Positions 12,824-35,731 of a stretch of DNA of 41,856 bases are shown piece by piece. The first letter of the stretch is position 1. Each line of letters opens with the position of its first letter. The notes below the pieces were generated by a model. The model made no database searches and was not told where the DNA came from. It was given only the letters and a program-made list of their open reading frames with translations. The stretch lies in the NCBI GenBank assembly GCA_016935115.1, contig JAFGRN010000014.1, forward strand, positions 1 through 41,856, given 5' to 3'. The DNA comes from Candidatus Omnitrophota bacterium (GTDB taxonomy: Bacteria > Omnitrophota > Gorgyraeia > 2-01-FULL-45-10). The position numbers were made by a program, and so were the translations under genes.

Positions 12824-13627
12824 ATGGCAACGATAGGTCTCGTCGCTGGGTCGGGAAAGCTTCCGGCGATATTTTCGGACTCTGCCAGGCAGCGGGGGGA
12901 TAAGGTAATAGGCATAGGCCTGAAGGGGGTTACCCCTCCGGAGATAGAGAACCATGTTGATAAGTTTATCTGGTTTGAACTGGCGGCATTGCAGAAGATG
13001 ATCTTTGCGGCCGTTTCGAACCGGATAACCAAAATTGTTCTTCTGGGAAAGCTTAGGAAAGACATCTTCTTCAAGAATACGGAAGGATTCGACGAGGATA
13101 CAAGGAAGATCCTGGGCAAACTTACGGATAAAAAGGATTATTCGATGCTCAATAAAGTATCCGAAACTCTCTCGAAGTTCGGCATGGAGGTGCTGGATCC
13201 CACTCCTTATCTGAAGGATTATATGCCGTCTAAAGGCGTCCTTACCAGGCGGCACCCTTCGGAAGATGAGGCAAAGGACCTGGAATATGCCAGGAAGATA
13301 GCTCTGGAGAACGCCGGGCGGGACATAGGACAGGCCGTGGCGGTAAAAAACAGGACGGTCATAGCCATCGAGGCGGTCGAAGGTACAGATGAGATGATAG
13401 CCCGCGCGGGAAGCCTCTCCGGCCGGGGCTTTGTTGTGGCAAAGGTCGCGCGGCCCGAGCAGGACATGCGGTTCGACGTACCGCTCGTCGGGCTCGAGAC
13501 CGTCGAGGCCCTGGTGAAGGCAGGAGCTACGGCGCTTTCCATAGAAGCGGGCAGGACATTCCTCATAGACAGGGAAGAGATAATAAAGCTCGCCGACGAA
13601 AAATCCCTCTCCATAGTCATAGTGTAG
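12824..13627 (+). CDS. lpxI: UDP-2,3-diacylglucosamine diphosphatase LpxI
   Basis: GLVAGSGKLP, DIGQAVAV, AIEAVEGTD, QDMRFDVP. Confidence 0.92.
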   Translation: MATIGLVAGSGKLPAIFSDSARQRGDKVIGIGLKGVTPPEIENHVDKFIWFELAALQKMIFAAVSNRITKIVLLGKLRKDIFFKNTEGFDEDTRKILGKLTDKKDYSMLNKVSETLSKFGMEVLDPTPYLKDYMPSKGVLTRRHPSEDEAKDLEYARKIALENAGRDIGQAVAVKNRTVIAIEAVEGTDEMIARAGSLSGRGFVVAKVARPEQDMRFDVPLVGLETVEALVKAGATALSIEAGRTFLIDREEIIKLADEKSLSIVIV

Positions 13628-13638
13628 CTCCTCCGCAG

Positions 13639-13763
13639 TAGCGAAAATATCCCCCGCTCGTACCAGGTATCTTTCGGCATACCTATAAGGGAAAGTGTTA
13701 CAAGGCTCCCCACCCGGGCTGTAAGGGCTGACTACGGATGAGAAGCCGGGGATATTTTTGCTA
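13639..13763. repeat. MITE/REP-like element, copy A, with 16-bp terminal inverted repeats
   Basis: TAGCGAAAATATCCCC (13639-13654) / GGGGATATTTTTGCTA (13748-13763); internal 24-mer 13711-13734 is the exact reverse complement of 35148-35171. Confidence 0.85.
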
Positions 13764-13843
13764 TGGAAGCAGCTGCCGGGGACAGGTCTGAGAAGGATTT
13801 TGAAAACGTCCCTGATTCTACAGTAGCGAGGAGAGGGAGAGTT

Positions 13844-31989: not shown

Positions 31990-32473
31990 TAGCGTCAGAT
32001 CGGGCGATCTAGCCGCGGAGATAAAGAAGAGGGTAAGGGGCAAGGTCACGATATCCGCCATCGGCAACATAATGAGGGGCGATGACGGCCTCGGCCCGAA
32101 ACTGATAGAGATGCTGAAGGCCCGCAATGTGAAGGCGGGCCTTTTTGATTGCGGAACGGCCCCGGAGAATTATATCTTTCCAATGCTCACGACGCTGTGC
32201 GATACTCTCATCCTCGTGGACGCGGCGGACATGGCCATAGAGCCGGGGCTCGCCAGGGTGCTTAATGTCGATGATATAGCGAATGTCAGCTTCTCCACGC
32301 ACTGCCCGTCGCCGCGGCTCTTCATAGACCTGCTGAAGACTGGAAACGAAAACCTCAATGTCTTCGTCATATCCGTACAACCCAAAGATACCTCTCTCGG
32401 GATCCCATTGAGCGCGGAGGTCCTCAAAGGGCTCGAAACCCTCGCGGACGCGCTCACAGAAGCGCTTGCCTGA
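31979..32473 (+). CDS. hycI: Hydrogenase maturation endopeptidase
   Basis: IGNIMRGDDGLGP, GTAPEN, LVDAAD, STH. Confidence 0.88.
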   Translation: MSDNSVRSGDLAAEIKKRVRGKVTISAIGNIMRGDDGLGPKLIEMLKARNVKAGLFDCGTAPENYIFPMLTTLCDTLILVDAADMAIEPGLARVLNVDDIANVSFSTHCPSPRLFIDLLKTGNENLNVFVISVQPKDTSLGIPLSAEVLKGLETLADALTEALA

Positions 32474-32475
32474 TA

Positions 32476-32720
32476 GGGATTTTTCAGCTATCAGCTTCAG
32501 GTGGAAGTGACCAAAGCGATCCACCTGGAGCGACTGTCGTAAAAATGCGATACCTATAGGCGATATACCGGGACAAGGAAACTGCTCCATGGCTTATGTG
32601 TATGCAGGTTCATTGGCCATCGCATTTTTACCACAGCGAATTTACATGCCTAATGTAAATTCGCGGCAAGCGAAAGGTGGTCGCTTGGTCACATCTGTAG
32701 GGATGGGACCGAAAAATCCC
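32476..32720. repeat. Structured palindromic intergenic element, copy C
   Basis: GGGATTTTTC/GAAAAATCCC ends; stems 32539-32551/32619-32631 and 32636-32647/32653-32664; motifs shared with 35495-35605. Confidence 0.8.
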
Positions 32721-32773
32721 GAAAAGGGACGTTTTAGCTTGAATTTACGCGTGATATTATACATAATTGAAAT

Positions 32774-34171
32774 ATGCTGAGCGCGACTATAGAAGAGATC
32801 AAGGATCCGCCGGAACCGCAGGAGATATTCCGTTCGATGCACGATCGCGCCTGCGGCTTCTTCCTGGATAGCGCATGTGATCCGGAAAAACTGGGGCGCT
32901 ATTCGTTGATGGGATGCGACCCGTTCCTGGTATTCAGGTCCAAGGGTGATGCCATCATGTTGGAACGCCCCGGCCGCCCGACGGAGAAATTGACGGGCAA
33001 TCCTTTCCTTGTATTAAAAAAACTGCTGAAAAAATACCCCGCAAGGCCTGTAAAGGAGATTCCTTTTGCCGGAGGCGCCGTTGGATATTTCTCCTACGAC
33101 CTGAAGAACTTCATAGAGGACCTGCCGGACCGCCCGCCGGATGACCTTAAGATTCCGGATTGCATCCTGGGGTTTTATGATTCGGTCGTTATATACGACA
33201 ACCTTAAGAAGAGGTGTTATATTTCGGACATGGGAATAACCGGAGGGGCTTCGAAGCGTCTGGCGAAACTTATCCGGGCCGCTTCGCGTAAAGGGACAGG
33301 CCCGGAGGATTTTAATCCGCCCAGGAACGTGAGGTCAAATTTCTCGAAACGTTCATATATGGCCGCCGTCGAAAGGGCAAAAGATTATATCCGGAAGGGC
33401 GATATATATCAGGTCAATCTTTCCCAAAGATTTAAAGCCGTTCTCGCCTGCGGGGCATTCGGCCTTTATATGCGGCTGAGGGAATGTTCTCCGGCGCCGT
33501 TTGCTTCATATCTAAATTTCGGACAGGTGAAGATATTAAGCTCATCGCCGGAACGTTTTCTCTTTAAGAGGGGCGGCTATATCGAGACCCGGCCCATAAA
33601 AGGGACCAGGCCGCGCGGCGCCGATAAGGTTTCAGACGCGGCTATGGAAGCGGAACTGAAAGCCAGCCGGAAGGACATGGCCGAGCATATCATGATAGTG
33701 GACCTGGAGCGCAATGACCTGGGCAGAATATGCCGCTACGGCTCCGTCGGAGTGGATGAATCGGCGGTCATAGAGAAGTATGCAAATGTCTTTCATATGG
33801 TTTCAACGGTCTCCGGCACCCTGAAAGACGGAGTCGATCCCGTCGACTGCCTTTTGGCGGCTTTCCCGGGAGGGTCGATAACGGGAGCGCCCAAAATCCG
33901 GTCGATGGAGATTATCGAGGAGCTTGAAAATGTGAAGAGGTCCGTATATACAGGAGCCATAGGGTATATAGGTTTCGATGGCAATATGGATACTTCCATA
34001 GTGATTAGAACCTTACTGGTTAAAGAAAGAGACGCGTATTTCCAGGTGGGCGGGGGCATAGTTGCCGATTCCGATCCCGAAAAAGAGTATGATGAGACCC
34101 TGCATAAAGCCGCCGGGCTCATTGACGCGCTCGGCCTTGAATCGAAGAATAAGGAGCCGATCCCGGCATGA
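32774..34171 (+). CDS. pabB: Aminodeoxychorismate synthase component I
   Basis: FFLDS, GRYS, GDIYQVNLSQ, SSPERF, PIKGT, IVDLERNDL, FPGGSITGAPK. Confidence 0.93.
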   Translation: MLSATIEEIKDPPEPQEIFRSMHDRACGFFLDSACDPEKLGRYSLMGCDPFLVFRSKGDAIMLERPGRPTEKLTGNPFLVLKKLLKKYPARPVKEIPFAGGAVGYFSYDLKNFIEDLPDRPPDDLKIPDCILGFYDSVVIYDNLKKRCYISDMGITGGASKRLAKLIRAASRKGTGPEDFNPPRNVRSNFSKRSYMAAVERAKDYIRKGDIYQVNLSQRFKAVLACGAFGLYMRLRECSPAPFASYLNFGQVKILSSSPERFLFKRGGYIETRPIKGTRPRGADKVSDAAMEAELKASRKDMAEHIMIVDLERNDLGRICRYGSVGVDESAVIEKYANVFHMVSTVSGTLKDGVDPVDCLLAAFPGGSITGAPKIRSMEIIEELENVKRSVYTGAIGYIGFDGNMDTSIVIRTLLVKERDAYFQVGGGIVADSDPEKEYDETLHKAAGLIDALGLESKNKEPIPA

Positions 34172-35019
34172 ACAAAGTCTGGCTGAATAAGAAGATAATT
34201 GACGCTGAAAGCGCTTGCATACCGATATCGGACAGGGGTTTCATGTACGGTGACGGCGTGTTTGAGACAATGCGTTCTTATTCCGGAATGGTTTTTAAGA
34301 TAGACGCCCATCTTGACAGGTTGTTCAATTCCCTTAAAGTGGCGAAATTTTCCAGTCCTTACGCAAAAGATTATCTGAAGCGGGAAATATACAGGCTGCT
34401 TGACGCCAATCGCCTTAAAGAAGCGTATATCCGCCTAATGATAACCAGGGGCGAGGGGCGATTCGGGATGGAACATAAGGATAGATTTATTCCTAATACC
34501 GTGATAGTCGTAAAAGAGTTCCACAGCTACCCGGCGCGCGTGTACGCTAAGGGTATAACGGCCGGAGTGGTCGATATAAGGCAGAATGAGCTATCACCGG
34601 TTTCGGGGATCAAATCCTTGAACTTCATTAATTACATCCTGGCGAGGTTTGAGGCGAAAGAGAAAGGTTATGACGAGGCCATTCTCGCGAATTCCAGGGG
34701 GCATATTGCCGAGGCGACCACGAGCAATATATTCATGGTGAAGGGAATGGGGCTTATAACACCATCCCCCGATAGCGGTATCCTGCCCGGCATTACAAGG
34801 ATGGTCGTGATGCAGCTGGCCAGGCGCCGCGGGATATTCGTCAAAGAGATGGCCGTTACCAGGCGCGAGCTATATAATTCAGATGAGATATTTCTCACCA
34901 ATTCACTCTCCGAGGTCCTGCCGGTAGTTGCCGTTGACGGGAAGAGGATAGGCCGCGGCGTTCCCGGAGAAACAACCCGGCTCCTTCACAGCCTCTACCG
35001 CAAAGAAACCTCCCGATAG
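34168..35019 (+). CDS. Class IV PLP enzyme, probable aminodeoxychorismate lyase (PabC/IlvE/Dat family)
   Basis: DRGFMYGDGVFET, HLDRL, IKSLN, E...SNIF, ILPGITR, FLTNS; overlaps pabB stop. Confidence 0.85.
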   Translation: MNKVWLNKKIIDAESACIPISDRGFMYGDGVFETMRSYSGMVFKIDAHLDRLFNSLKVAKFSSPYAKDYLKREIYRLLDANRLKEAYIRLMITRGEGRFGMEHKDRFIPNTVIVVKEFHSYPARVYAKGITAGVVDIRQNELSPVSGIKSLNFINYILARFEAKEKGYDEAILANSRGHIAEATTSNIFMVKGMGLITPSPDSGILPGITRMVVMQLARRRGIFVKEMAVTRRELYNSDEIFLTNSLSEVLPVVAVDGKRIGRGVPGETTRLLHSLYRKETSR

Positions 35020-35031
35020 AGATATAATTTG

Positions 35032-35663
35032 TAGCAAAAATATCCCCTGTGCCCCCGCTCCAGTTAAGCCATAATCCAAAGTTATGTTCGCACCGGGTAT
35101 CTTCCGGCACAGGGGGTGAAGTATATTACAAAGCGACCACCTTCCCATAGTCAGCCCTTACAGCCCGGGTGCATCGCGGGGACGTGGAAATTCCCCTGCG
35201 AGGAATTTCCACTCGGAAAGGTCGCTCGCTCTCCCGCCAAATAGGCCGGATGTCAAGCAGAGTATTTTAATATGTATTTGGCGGGATCCATGCCACGCCC
35301 TACGACTTTCGACGCCCCGCTCAACACCCGGGCTGTAAGGGCACTAATGATAAGCTCCAGGTGAGTCGCTTTGTAACACTTTCCCTGTATGCCGGAAGAT
35401 ACCCGTTACTCTCTCCCTGAAGCAAAAATATCGTATGGGGTGTCCCCAAATGGACCGTCCCCTGTTGCGGGGTGGCAGAACTTTTGGCACCTTGCTGGAG
35501 CGAATCTCTAAAATTTCGATACCTATAGGCGCTACAGACTTTATCATCGAAATTTTAGCGACAGCGAACGAGGAAGCCTATTGACGAGTGAGCGGCGAGC
35601 GAAAGCAAGTGCCAAAAGTAAATGCCACCACTGAGGGGATGGGGGCCCGGGGGATATTTTTGC
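35032..35663. repeat. Large composite palindromic element, copy B, with nested inverted repeats
   Basis: GCAAAAATATCCCC (35034-35047)/GGGGATATTTTTGC (35650-35663) enclosing two rods, 35094-35405 and 35457-35640. Confidence 0.88.
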
Positions 35664-35674
35664 CCTGATAGCAT

Positions 35675-35704
35675 TTGACCTTAATAGCATATATATGATA
35701 CAAT
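35675..35704 (+). promoter_or_regulatory. Sigma70 promoter of the LPS sugar operon
   Basis: TTGACC-N18-TACAAT with TG extension; SD AAGGA before ATG 35732. Confidence 0.65.
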
Positions 35705-35731
35705 AGCGCCCGAATTTCGAAAGGAAAAATT

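What the first reader, a model, noticed from the sequence alone, without database searches (positions are those of the whole stretch)
32476..32720. Covarying structured motif shared between 32525-32676 and 35495-35605
Seen: both copies read CTGGAGCGA - 13-bp stem - ACCTATAGGCG - variable loop - stem' - ACAGCGAA-N7-GCCTA-N10/11-GCGGC(A/G)AGCGAAAG. The stem is GTAAAAATGCGAT/ATCGCATTTTTAC here and CTAAAATTTCGAT/ATCGAAATTTTAG in the other copy: three substitutions, each compensated. The basal stems differ in sequence but pair in both. I do not recognise it as a known riboswitch or ncRNA. Inference: a selected three-way-junction RNA or ssDNA structure, a candidate new motif.
Basis: partly seen in the sequence, partly recalled or inferred. 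Interest (0 to 1): 0.82.

Follow-up and report, generated by a model that had tools for sequence, protein, structure and literature searches.

The report
Mobile pseudoknotted hairpin repeat family
The two look-alike motifs are copies of a previously uncatalogued, many-copy insertion element of an uncultured sediment bacterium and its relatives, which folds as a long hairpin capped by a three-way junction and a pseudoknot; what moves it and what the fold does are still unknown.

Summary
Both copies have the stated blocks and compensated stems. They are not a local pair. A covariance model from 8 own-genome copies finds 13 matches in this 1.4-Mb draft, many at contig ends. It matches 28 of 41 related genomes: 24 of 24 in the same family, 1-25 matches each. 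In a phylum sample it matches 12 of 151, all in one class. Rfam has no match.

On 69 copies from 27 genomes, 96.6% of helix cells pair, against 32-48% when partners are slid, and 33 of 39 pairs show double changes. The P3 loop pairs with the P2 internal loop and covaries (GC 61, CG 5). G-U exceeds A-C and G-A exceeds C-U, so one strand folds.

Copy 1 is an insertion: the hycI|pabB site is empty in five relatives. Elements are modular: interchangeable outer clamps, short, long or no head, and other head types on similar or identical rods. They sit in either orientation.

It is not a riboswitch. Best reading: a non-autonomous mobile element whose single-stranded fold is selected. The mobilising enzyme is unidentified. 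TnpB, IS110, reverse transcriptase and rve transposases are absent or rare in the family. Whether it acts as RNA or ssDNA is open.

The parts
32476..32720 (+). Copy 1, complete long-form type A element (245 nt)
   Evidence: R1 match 32499-32701, 210.9 bits. Fold z -7.07. Absent from the orthologous hycI|pabB site in G001-G005.
32476..32488 (+). Copy 1 outer clamp, 5' arm (GGGATTTTTCAGC; X type)
   Evidence: Pairs with 32708-32720 in the MFE fold. The same clamp bounds other own-genome elements.
32708..32720 (+). Copy 1 outer clamp, 3' arm (ACCGAAAAATCCC)
32507..32524 (+). Copy 1 rod (P1), 5' arm; pairs with 32677-32692
   Evidence: P1 pairs covary in 15 of 16 positions (helices 1-2).
32677..32692 (+). 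Copy 1 rod (P1), 3' arm
32525..32533 (+). Copy 1 junction strand J1/2, CTGGAGCGA. Its GGA faces GAA/GGA of J3/1 (purine 3x3 loop) and its GC pairs with GC of J3/1.
   Evidence: helix 3: GC 67, CG 67 of 68 cells.
32539..32551 (+). Copy 1 P2a, 5' arm; pairs with 32619-32631
   Evidence: helices 5-6
32552..32562 (+). Copy 1 conserved 5'-side internal loop ACCTATAGGCG. TAGGC at 32557-32561 pairs with the P3 loop GCCTA at 32648-32652 (pseudoknot).
   Evidence: pairs 76-279, 77-278, 78-277.
32563..32618 (+). Copy 1 P2b distal arm (long form only), with conserved A.G mismatches
   Evidence: 47 of 55 long-form copies fit. Five positions show two or more Watson-Crick pair types.
32619..32631 (+). Copy 1 P2a, 3' arm
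32636..32664 (+). Copy 1 P3 hairpin with loop GCCTA
   Evidence: helix 7: 8 of 8 pairs with double changes.
32665..32676 (+). Copy 1 junction strand J3/1, GGCAAGCGAAAG
35422..35664 (+). Copy 2, complete short-form type A element with Y-type outer clamp (GCAAAAATATC at 35422-35432, GATATTTTTGC at 35653-35663)
   Evidence: R1 match 35470-35630, 147 bits. Fold z -4.56. Clamp positions.
35495..35605 (+). Copy 2 head: J1/2, P2a (35508-35520 with 35546-35558), loop ACCTATAGGCG (35521-35531), P3 with tandem G.A pairs (35564-35593), J3/1 (35594-35605)
35095..35404 (-). Type B element: a different ornate head on a rod closely similar in sequence to that of a type A copy (own contig C18). It starts CTGGAGC (35360-35339 read on the minus strand) and ends GGGAAGG.
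   Evidence: Fold of 35015-35475 minus strand: z -11.85. Clamps at 35095-35108 and 35391-35404. Relatives in own contig C8 and in G001, G003, G004 and G005.
32739..32767 (+). Promoter-like site between copy 1 and the pabB start (TTGAAT-17-CATAAT). It places copy 1 outside the pabB leader.
   Evidence: consensus scan only.
35675..35704 (+). Promoter-like site between copy 2 and the ORF at 35732 (TTGACC-18-TACAAT with TG)
   Evidence: consensus scan only.

Best explanation
The two motifs are a long-form and a short-form copy of one clade-restricted family of non-autonomous insertion elements.

Anatomy. Each element is an imperfect palindrome of about 160-250 nt that folds on one defined strand. 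From the outside in it has:
- an outer 11-13-bp clamp
- a short variable unpaired spacer
- a conserved rod with fixed internal loops
- a purine-rich 3x3 loop
- a three-way junction

One arm of the junction (P2) has a large one-sided internal loop. That loop pairs with the loop of the other arm (P3), which makes a pseudoknot.

What is shown:
- The elements are many-copy.
- They are present or absent at orthologous sites.
- They lie in either orientation.
- They nest in or beside one another.
- They are built from exchangeable modules.
- The fold is conserved, with covariation and strand polarity.

What is inferred:
- The fold is kept because the element's own spread needs a folded single-stranded intermediate that an enzyme encoded elsewhere recognises by shape.
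- That intermediate is more likely ssDNA than RNA.
- New copies land preferentially in or next to existing hairpin elements.

The enzyme is not identified. HUH-type Y1 (RAYT-like) transposases are the only one of the five candidate mobility-enzyme families tested that is near-universal in carrier genomes. No physical link to them was found.
For: Copy number and spread:
- 13 R1 matches in the own genome, many at contig ends.
- 28 of 41 related genomes match. That is 24 of 24 in family f1, 2 of 3 in f3, 1 of 1 in f14 and 0 of 12 in the other families.
- 12 of 151 genomes in the phylum sample match, all in one class.
- 117 metagenome stretches hold the pattern.

Mobility:
- The hycI|pabB site is empty in G001-G004, where the stop and start codons abut, and also in G005 by gap size.
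- The asd|truA site is empty in G013, G003, G028 and G031. It holds different element types in G000, G004, G010, G005 and G001.
- The ychF|ORF315 site is empty in G005 and holds a headless rod in G004.

Modularity:
- In G004 the same inner unit sits inside either clamp type. G014 copies lie within a further conserved outer repeat.
- Y-clamped elements with other heads occur in the own genome.

Selected single-strand fold:
- 96.6% of 2645 cells pair, against 32-48% for slid partners. 33 of 39 pairs have double changes. 0 of 500 shuffles reach the observed values.
- Pseudoknot pairs: GC 61 / CG 5 / other 1, and GC 64 / AU 2 / other 1.
- A distant copy has CGCGCC facing GGCGCG at the same two places.
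- G-U 50 against A-C 19, and G-A 45 against C-U 5.
- A conserved A.G mismatch in P2b.

Orientation to neighbouring ORFs is mixed, 14 same and 11 opposite. No neighbouring gene recurs apart from housekeeping genes and the IS30-family transposase discussed elsewhere.

Candidate enzymes in family f1:
- Y1_Tnp in 20 of 24 genomes
- TnpB-type domain in 0 of 26
- IS110 in 1 of 26
- RVT_1 in 4 of 26
- rve in 8 of 26
Against: - No mobilising enzyme is linked to the element. None of the 15 RAYT-like loci examined (3 own, 12 from relatives) is flanked by the clamps.
- Y1_Tnp also occurs in most non-carrier families of the class: 34 of 41 genomes overall.
- No target-site duplication or exact insertion junction could be read. 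The relatives with empty sites share only about 66-77% nucleotide identity with the window in the flanking genes.
- No autonomous element with the same ends was found.
- A pseudoknot, conserved purine loops and tandem G.A pairs are more typical of functional RNAs than of transposon ends.
- Conservation across at least 21 genera is long for a purely selfish repeat.
- Elements at the same intergenic site in several genera could also mean retention for a host function.
- The 69-copy alignment was fitted to the model, and the copies are related. The counts therefore overstate the number of independent events.
Confidence: 0.5

Rival explanations
1. The element is a mobile gene for a functional structured RNA. 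The head would be a ribozyme, or a guide or scaffold for an enzyme or RNP encoded in trans. The rod would be a processing or presentation stem. Spread through the genome would be secondary to the RNA's activity.
For: - A compact fold with a covarying pseudoknot, conserved one-sided loops, a purine 3x3 loop and tandem G.A pairs.
- Strand polarity.
- Several distinct ornate heads share one platform that begins CTGGA(A)GC and ends AAGCGRAAGG.
- Whole helical modules are gained or lost: short, long and headless forms, and extra hairpins. This is the way large RNAs evolve.
- Single-copy occurrences in two further families.
Against: - No orientation bias to neighbouring genes.
- No promoter-like site reads into either window copy. 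The predicted promoters lie downstream of both.
- No conserved sequence lies upstream of the clamp across genera.
- No partner protein gene is adjacent.
- Known RNA-guided mobile systems are excluded as the partner: TnpB in 0 of 26 genomes and IS110 in 1 of 26.
- IS30-family insertions interrupt the head in at least six cases, so individual copies are dispensable.
Confidence: 0.27
2. The element is a domesticated intergenic module. It would act as a bidirectional terminator or insulator, or as an mRNA-end stabiliser, kept by the host in a compact genome in the way REP, ERIC and BOX repeats are thought to act.
For: - The elements sit tightly between genes, often abutting the 3' end of a neighbour.
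- 16 of the 17 elements with both neighbours called lie between co-directional genes.
- In most genera the clamp reads A-run / stem / T-run on both strands.
- Copy 1 separates two genes that overlap in relatives, and a promoter-like site follows it.
- The same intergenic sites are occupied in several genera.
Against: - A terminator needs only a short hairpin. This reading does not explain the junction, the pseudoknot, the conserved loops or the strand polarity.
- In the window's own genus the clamp lacks the T-run.
- Orthologous sites are often empty.
Confidence: 0.1
3. There is no selection on a fold. The complementarity of the arms would be kept by DNA-level processes acting on inverted repeats, namely quasi-palindrome correction by template switching and gene conversion among copies. 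The apparent covariation would be a by-product. (The mechanism is recalled, not from a call.)
For: - The element is a long inverted repeat.
- The copies recombine into mosaics.
- Related copies inflate the covariation counts, a caveat stated in the output.
Against: - Arm-to-arm correction would erase mismatches. Yet the one-sided 11-16-nt loop, the 3x4 and 3x3 loops and the A.G mismatch persist across genera.
- It cannot produce covariation between a hairpin loop and a distant internal loop.
- It predicts no strand asymmetry, but G-U 50 against A-C 19 and G-A 45 against C-U 5 are seen.
Confidence: 0.05
4. The motif is a riboswitch or leader controlling pabB-pabC and the downstream ORF.
For: Both window copies lie upstream of + strand genes, and pabB/pabC are folate-pathway genes.
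Against: - Copies lie next to unrelated genes and in both orientations.
- The pabB site is empty in five relatives.
- Promoter-like sites lie between each copy and the gene.
- No match to any Rfam riboswitch.
Confidence: 0.01

Closest known systems
REPINs / REP sequences with RAYT (Y1, HUH) transposases (Bertels & Rainey 2011, PMC3116915; I saw the abstract and 12 passages)
   Same: Many-copy intergenic DNA that forms hairpins and is non-autonomous. Clusters form by insertion into or beside existing copies. RAYT-like genes are present in the genome: 3 in G000 and 20 of 24 genomes in the family. A single-stranded folded form is thought to be the active one.
   Different: The arms are not themselves short REP palindromes. 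The element is 160-250 nt with a three-way junction and a pseudoknot. None of the 15 RAYT-like loci examined is flanked by its clamps. In G000 the two RAYT-like genes whose flanks were read as inverted repeats (C20, C19) carry other, simpler REPs.
Bacterial MITEs and structured interspersed repeats (Correia, ERIC, BOX and the like; recalled, plus the review PMC3184786 seen only as a search listing)
   Same: Terminal inverted repeats of 11-13 bp, size, copy number, intergenic location, presence or absence at orthologous sites, and modular mosaics.
   Different: No target-site duplication was seen and no parent IS with the same ends was found. The interior is not decaying. It is conserved across at least 21 genera with covariation, a tertiary pairing and strand polarity.
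Integron attC sites and other folded single-strand recombination sites (architecture recalled, not from a call)
   Same: The layered architecture is the same: a conserved base helix, an unpaired variable spacer, a helix with fixed unpaired bases, then a variable terminal structure that may branch. The sequence drifts while the fold is kept, and one strand is the active one.
   Different: No RYYYAAC/GTTRRRY-type ends. Copies are dispersed in both orientations beside housekeeping genes rather than in one-way cassette arrays. No link to an integrase was tested.
Ornate RNAs of mobile elements: HEARO / omega RNAs of IscB and TnpB, and IS110 bridge RNAs (identities recalled)
   Same: Large, pseudoknotted, many-copy and tied to mobile DNA. 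A conserved scaffold carries variable loops.
   Different: No Rfam match to either copy or to the six further element-bearing loci. The TnpB-type domain is found in 0 of 26 family genomes and IS110 in 1 of 26. No protein gene is adjacent.

Membership tests
Any Rfam 15 family | Match to a curated covariance model | tested here: not met
   At gathering thresholds the window matches only a tRNA at 1853-1923. Up to E=10 on 32200-36000 there are two unrelated weak matches, at 33640-33827. Up to E=1 there are 0 matches on six own-genome loci with type A, B and C elements.
Riboswitch / cis-acting leader | Sense orientation in the 5' leader of a functionally coherent gene set | tested here: not met
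   Relative to the downstream ORF, 14 copies are in the same orientation and 11 are opposite. The neighbours are unrelated housekeeping genes. Promoter-like sites lie between each copy and its gene. The orthologous pabB site is empty in five relatives.
MITE | Terminal inverted repeats, small size, many copies, insertion polymorphism | tested here: met
   Clamps of 11-13 bp. Size 160-250 nt. 13 R1 matches in the own genome and 1-25 per related genome. Empty sites.
MITE | Target-site duplication | tested here: inconclusive
   No direct repeat is visible at the clamp borders of the copies printed. The relatives with empty sites are too diverged (about 66-77% nucleotide identity in the flanking genes) to place the junction to the base.
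MITE | A parent IS with the same ends encoding the transposase | tested here: not met
   In G000 no clamp pair encloses a transposase-sized unit; the three wider pairs were not pursued as elements, and the two whose ORFs were listed were not scanned against protein families. Half-site searches in five near-complete genomes gave only element-sized or shorter pairs at one mismatch or fewer. The search was limited by draft assemblies.
REPIN / REP-RAYT | The repeat unit flanks a RAYT gene | tested here: not met
   0 of 15 RAYT-like loci carry X or Y clamps beside the gene. The two G000 RAYT-like genes whose flanks were read as inverted repeats (C20, C19) are flanked by other repeats.
REPIN / REP-RAYT | Two inverted copies of a short, self-palindromic REP | tested here: not met
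   The two arms pair only with each other. Neither the clamp nor the rod arm is a palindrome on its own (sequences).
TnpB/IscB omega RNA or IS110 bridge RNA | Encoded beside, and co-occurring with, the effector gene | tested here: not met
   PF07282 in 0 of 26 and PF01548 in 1 of 26 family genomes. No such gene lies near the copies. IscB itself was not searched as a protein family.
Integron attC | R''/R' consensus ends, one-way arrays of cassettes, integron integrase | not tested
   The ends read AAATTTTTCGGC/GCCGAAAAATTT or GGCGAAAATATC/GATATTTTCGCC, which is not the recalled attC consensus. Copies are dispersed and in both orientations. No integrase search was made.
Retroelement-borne RNA (retron, group II intron, SINE-like) | Reverse transcriptase in carrier genomes | tested here: not met
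   RVT_1 in 4 of 26 family genomes. The one in G000 belongs to a diversity-generating retroelement.

The most novel reading that the evidence does not exclude
The heads are genes for compact, pseudoknotted RNAs carried on a common hairpin platform that is itself mobile. This would be a class of protein-less mobile RNA genes with interchangeable heads. The RNA would be a self-cleaving or ligating ribozyme, or the guide or scaffold of an enzyme encoded elsewhere, and it would take part in the element's own spread or in a cellular process. The variable unpaired spacers between clamp and rod could then be specificity determinants.
Probability: 0.2. Interest if true: 0.85.

Novelty: new variant of a known kind. 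Interest (0 to 1): 0.6.

Why it matters
Interspersed bacterial repeats are usually simple hairpins. Here the interior carries a conserved three-way junction, fixed non-canonical loops and a covarying tertiary pairing. It is kept across at least 21 genera of small-genome, uncultured bacteria, at 1-25 model matches per related genome.

That combination has marked mobile-element RNAs that later proved to be working parts of their elements. HEARO and the omega RNAs are a recalled example.

If the fold is read by an enzyme, the family offers a new structure-specific nucleic-acid recognition system. If it is an RNA, it offers a new ornate RNA class with modular heads.

There are also practical consequences:
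- These elements break the assemblies of this lineage.
- They mark hot spots of rearrangement.
- They are the specific landing site of an IS30-family insertion sequence.

Tried and rejected
- Riboswitch for pabB: rejected on distribution, orientation, empty orthologous sites and promoter position.
- Known RNA family: no Rfam match.
- Protein-coding: the short ORFs over the element recur only because the DNA is conserved. The stems covary, so a coding reading was dropped.
- Expression: no RNA holder of the window was listed. Two metatranscriptome runs of the same study, kept as contigs, gave no cover on either element. This is not evidence either way.
None of the 119 loci outside the own genome carried the full motif. 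The scan therefore gave no organism names and no information.
- Viral contigs: 0 matches to a 21-base-specified pattern.
- Partner by neighbourhood: clustering the ORFs around 59 + 6 + 80 loci gave only housekeeping genes and the IS30-family transposase.
- Partner by clamp pairs enclosing an ORF: the wider pairs in G000 (C62, C76, C22) were not pursued as candidate elements; the ORFs of C62 and C76 were listed but not scanned against protein families, and C22 was not examined. The half-site searches at 2 mismatches were no better than the reversed control.
- RAYT link: the clamps are not beside 15 RAYT-like genes.
- Orientation against local GC skew: 17 co-oriented and 33 anti in relatives (p = 0.03), 4 and 9 in the own genome. 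This is weak, the copies are not independent, and short-flank skew mostly reflects the coding strand. It was left as inconclusive.
- Guide-like reading of the variable spacers: I checked by eye for complementarity to the flanks in a few copies and saw nothing. No statistical test was made.
- Literature: three word searches listed no paper describing this motif. Word searches cannot find a motif by sequence and the organism's name is unknown to me, so this means 'not found', not 'not in print'. I did not ask for supplementary files, and they may hold motif lists that I could not see.
Full report
**Observation.** The two 13-nt stems (32539-32551 with 32619-32631, and 35508-35520 with 35546-35558) differ at three positions, and each difference is compensated. 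The basal stems differ in sequence and pair in both copies. The full elements fold far better than shuffles: z = -7.07 for 32476-32720 and z = -4.56 for 35421-35664, with 0 of 200 shuffles as stable. Rfam 15 has no match to either copy.

**It is a family, not a pair.**
- The motif pattern occurs at 10 places in the window's own 1.40-Mb, 79-contig draft genome. The reversed control gives none.
- Many copies lie within 100 nt of a contig end, so these repeats break the assembly and the true number is higher.
- A covariance model (R1: 203 positions, 39 pairs) built from 8 own-genome copies finds 13 matches in the own genome.
- R1 matches 28 of 41 related genomes. That is all 24 genomes of the same family (21 genera, 1-25 matches each), 2 of 3 of a sister family, 1 of 1 of another, and 0 of 12 in the remaining families of the class.
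- In an even sample of the phylum it is in 12 of 151 genomes, all in one class.
- A strict pattern finds 117 stretches in public metagenome contigs and none in viral contigs.

**Structure.** I aligned 69 copies from 27 genomes to the model.
- 96.6% of 2645 cells form standard pairs, against 32-48% when the 3' partners are slid by 1-3 columns.
- 33 of 39 pairs show changes on both sides, and no shuffle of 500 reaches the observed values.
- The large one-sided loop after P2a holds GGC, and the P3 loop holds GCC. Where the first reads GCC the second reads GGC (5 of 5 copies). Where the first reads AGC the second reads GCU (2 of 2). One cell breaks at each of those two pairs.
- A single copy in a more distant family has CGCGCC facing GGCGCG at the same two places. 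A loop-loop pseudoknot is therefore supported.
- The long form has a further helix, P2b. It covaries at five positions and carries an A.G mismatch in 45 of the 47 copies that fit my search pattern, out of 55 long-form copies. The pattern itself allowed only G or A at that position.
- Within helices, G-U (50) outnumbers A-C (19), and G-A (45) outnumbers C-U (5). The sense strand folds as well as or better than its complement in 6 of 6 copies. One strand of fixed polarity is therefore the folding strand.
- Caveats: the alignment was fitted to the model, the copies are kin, and the seven pseudoknot changes may stem from only two or three events.

**Anatomy.** From the outside in, an element has:
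- an 11-13-bp clamp
- 5-12 unpaired, variable bases on each side
- a conserved rod (GGCGGAACTTTTG ... CAAAAGTAAACGCC in most genera) with fixed internal loops
- a variable, covarying stretch of rod
- a purine 3x3 loop and a 2-bp GC helix formed by CTGGAGCGA and AAGCGRAAGG
- the junction, with P2 and P3

The parts are exchangeable.
- Two clamp types exist: X (AAATTTTTCGGC/GCCGAAAAATTT, or GGGGATTTTTCGGC in the window's genus) and Y (GGCGAAAATATC/GATATTTTCGCC). The same inner unit sits in either type within one genome.
- P2 is short in copy 2 and long in copy 1, and it may carry extra hairpins.
- One relative has a headless rod in which CTGGAGCGA runs straight into GCGGCAAGCGGAAG.
- Other ornate heads sit on similar or identical rods and clamps. 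Examples are type B on the window's minus strand at 35095-35404 (z = -11.85) and types in own contigs C8, C62 and others.
- In one genome, three copies share a further conserved outer repeat around the X-clamped element.

**Mobility.**
- In four species of the same genus the hycI stop and the pabB start abut (TGA-T-ATG). In the window about 300 nt lie between them: copy 1 plus a promoter-like tail. The first pabB codons also differ. A fifth relative is also empty, judged by gap size.
- The asd|truA spacer is 30-50 nt and empty in four genomes. It is filled by different element types in five others.
- The site before the ORF at 35732 is empty in one relative. It holds a headless rod in a second relative and a different X-clamped element in a third. 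In the relatives examined that ORF lies beside other genes than pabC, so synteny breaks at the repeats.
- Downstream of a transketolase C-terminal gene, three genera each carry a copy. In two it is on the gene's strand and in one on the other.
- Orientation to the neighbouring ORFs is mixed, 14 same and 11 opposite.

**What it is not.**
- It is not a riboswitch. The neighbours are unrelated, both orientations occur, orthologous sites are empty, and promoter-like sites lie between each window copy and its gene.
- It is not the RNA of a TnpB or IS110 element (0 of 26 and 1 of 26 family genomes).
- It is not retroelement-borne. RVT_1 is in 4 of 26 genomes, and the one in this genome is a diversity-generating retroelement.
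- rve-type transposases are in 8 of 26 genomes.

**Partner.**
- No gene recurs beside the copies apart from housekeeping genes.
- Y1 (RAYT-like) genes are in 20 of 24 family genomes, but also in most non-carriers of the class.
- None of the 15 RAYT-like loci examined is flanked by the clamps. In this genome, two of them (C20, C19) are visibly flanked by other, simpler inverted repeats.

**IS30-family insertions.**
- An IS30-family insertion sequence (NF033563, E = 1e-86) sits inside type A heads at one and the same point, between GCGACTG and TC at the foot of P2.
- Three of the contigs showing both junctions (L313, L292, L383) show a 3-bp CTG on both sides inside a recognisable type A 5' half. 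L357 also has CTG on both sides, but its left flank is not a recognisable type A half.
- This occurs in five metagenome contigs and one related genome. The host elements have differing P2 sequences and the transposases are about 80% identical.
- A further genome shows an rve match about 200 nt from a partial model match that starts at that point.
- The IS uses the element as its landing site. It is not the element's own transposase, and this genome has none.

**How it most likely works.**
- Shown: a many-copy, modular insertion element whose single-stranded fold, including a tertiary pairing, is conserved with polarity.
- Inferred: the fold is needed for the element's own propagation through a folded single-stranded intermediate that a trans-encoded enzyme reads by shape, and new copies land in or beside existing hairpin elements.
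- I put this at 0.5.
- The main rival, at 0.27, is that the heads are functional RNAs (ribozyme, guide or scaffold) on a mobile platform.
- A domesticated terminator or insulator role (0.1) does not explain the head.
- Maintenance of the arms by template switching alone (0.05; mechanism recalled) does not explain the kept mismatches, the loop-loop covariation or the strand asymmetry.

**Novelty and limits.**
- The nearest known kinds are REPINs (PMC3116915; I saw the abstract and passages), MITE-like structured repeats, folded single-strand recombination sites such as attC, and the ornate RNAs of IscB/TnpB/IS110 elements. The last three are recalled.
- It fails the defining tests of each that could be run, except the general MITE features.
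- Three word searches of the paper library found no description. The preprint 10.64898/2026.09.22.753630, of which I saw the outline and abstract, treats other families.
- I could not name the organism, see any transcript, read an exact insertion junction or identify the enzyme.

Noticed in passing
L292, L313, L342, L357, L383 (metagenome contigs); L214 (G027:C61); G019:C15:599-1280: An IS30-family insertion sequence (about 1.06 kb, one 328-aa transposase) is inserted at the same point of type A heads, between GCGACTG and TC. Three contigs show a 3-bp CTG on both sides within a recognisable type A half; a fourth (L357) has CTG on both sides but an unrecognisable left flank. The host elements differ in sequence. 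The IS appears to use the element as a specific target. None is found in the window's genome.
   Followed up: yes
window 35095-35404 (minus strand); outer repeats at 35034-35044 and 35422-35432: A second element type (type B, about 310 nt, fold z -11.85) lies back to back with copy 2. The same B-then-A arrangement recurs at four places in G004 and once in G003, judged by blast coordinates.
   Followed up: partly
window 32721-32800: After copy 1 come a fragment of another repeat (GGGACGTTTTAGC), a promoter-like site and a pabB start whose first codons differ from those of four congeners. In those congeners pabB overlaps the hycI stop. The insertion seems to have split an operon and been followed by a new start region.
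   Followed up: partly
G000:C7:12159-15776 (L131): A diversity-generating retroelement. It has a bAvd-like gene, a template repeat, a 335-aa reverse transcriptase, and a near-copy of the repeat (differing mostly where the template has A) at the 3' end of the upstream ORF.
   Followed up: partly
G000:C20:15300-16700, C19:700-2300, C15:5900-7300: Three RAYT-like Y1 transposase genes (184-228 aa). Two (C20, C19) are flanked by their own inverted REP-like repeats, for example GGGACGTTTTCAAAATTAGCTTCAGACCTGTCCCC around the C20 gene. These repeats also turn up beside the hairpin elements.
   Followed up: partly
G004:C1:101185-101315 (in L168): A headless version of the element: Y clamp and rod with CTGGAGCGA joined directly to GCGGCAAGCGGAAG. 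It lies at the site that holds copy 2 in the window.
   Followed up: partly
window 13560-13790; 41682-41692 (contig end): Further pieces of the same superfamily in the window. One is a Y-type half-site pair (one arm a one-base variant) around a partial rod at about 13640-13761. Another is a Y clamp half-site 165 nt from the contig end.
   Followed up: no
window 35732-36679: A 315-aa ORF downstream of copy 2 matches no Pfam family above threshold (weak DS hit only, E 0.006). It is conserved in relatives, but beside different neighbours.
   Followed up: no
own contigs C23, C35, C58, C61, C64, C43: At least six more Y-clamped, 200-300-nt hairpin elements with other ornate interiors. The genome holds a whole superfamily of such elements.
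   Followed up: no
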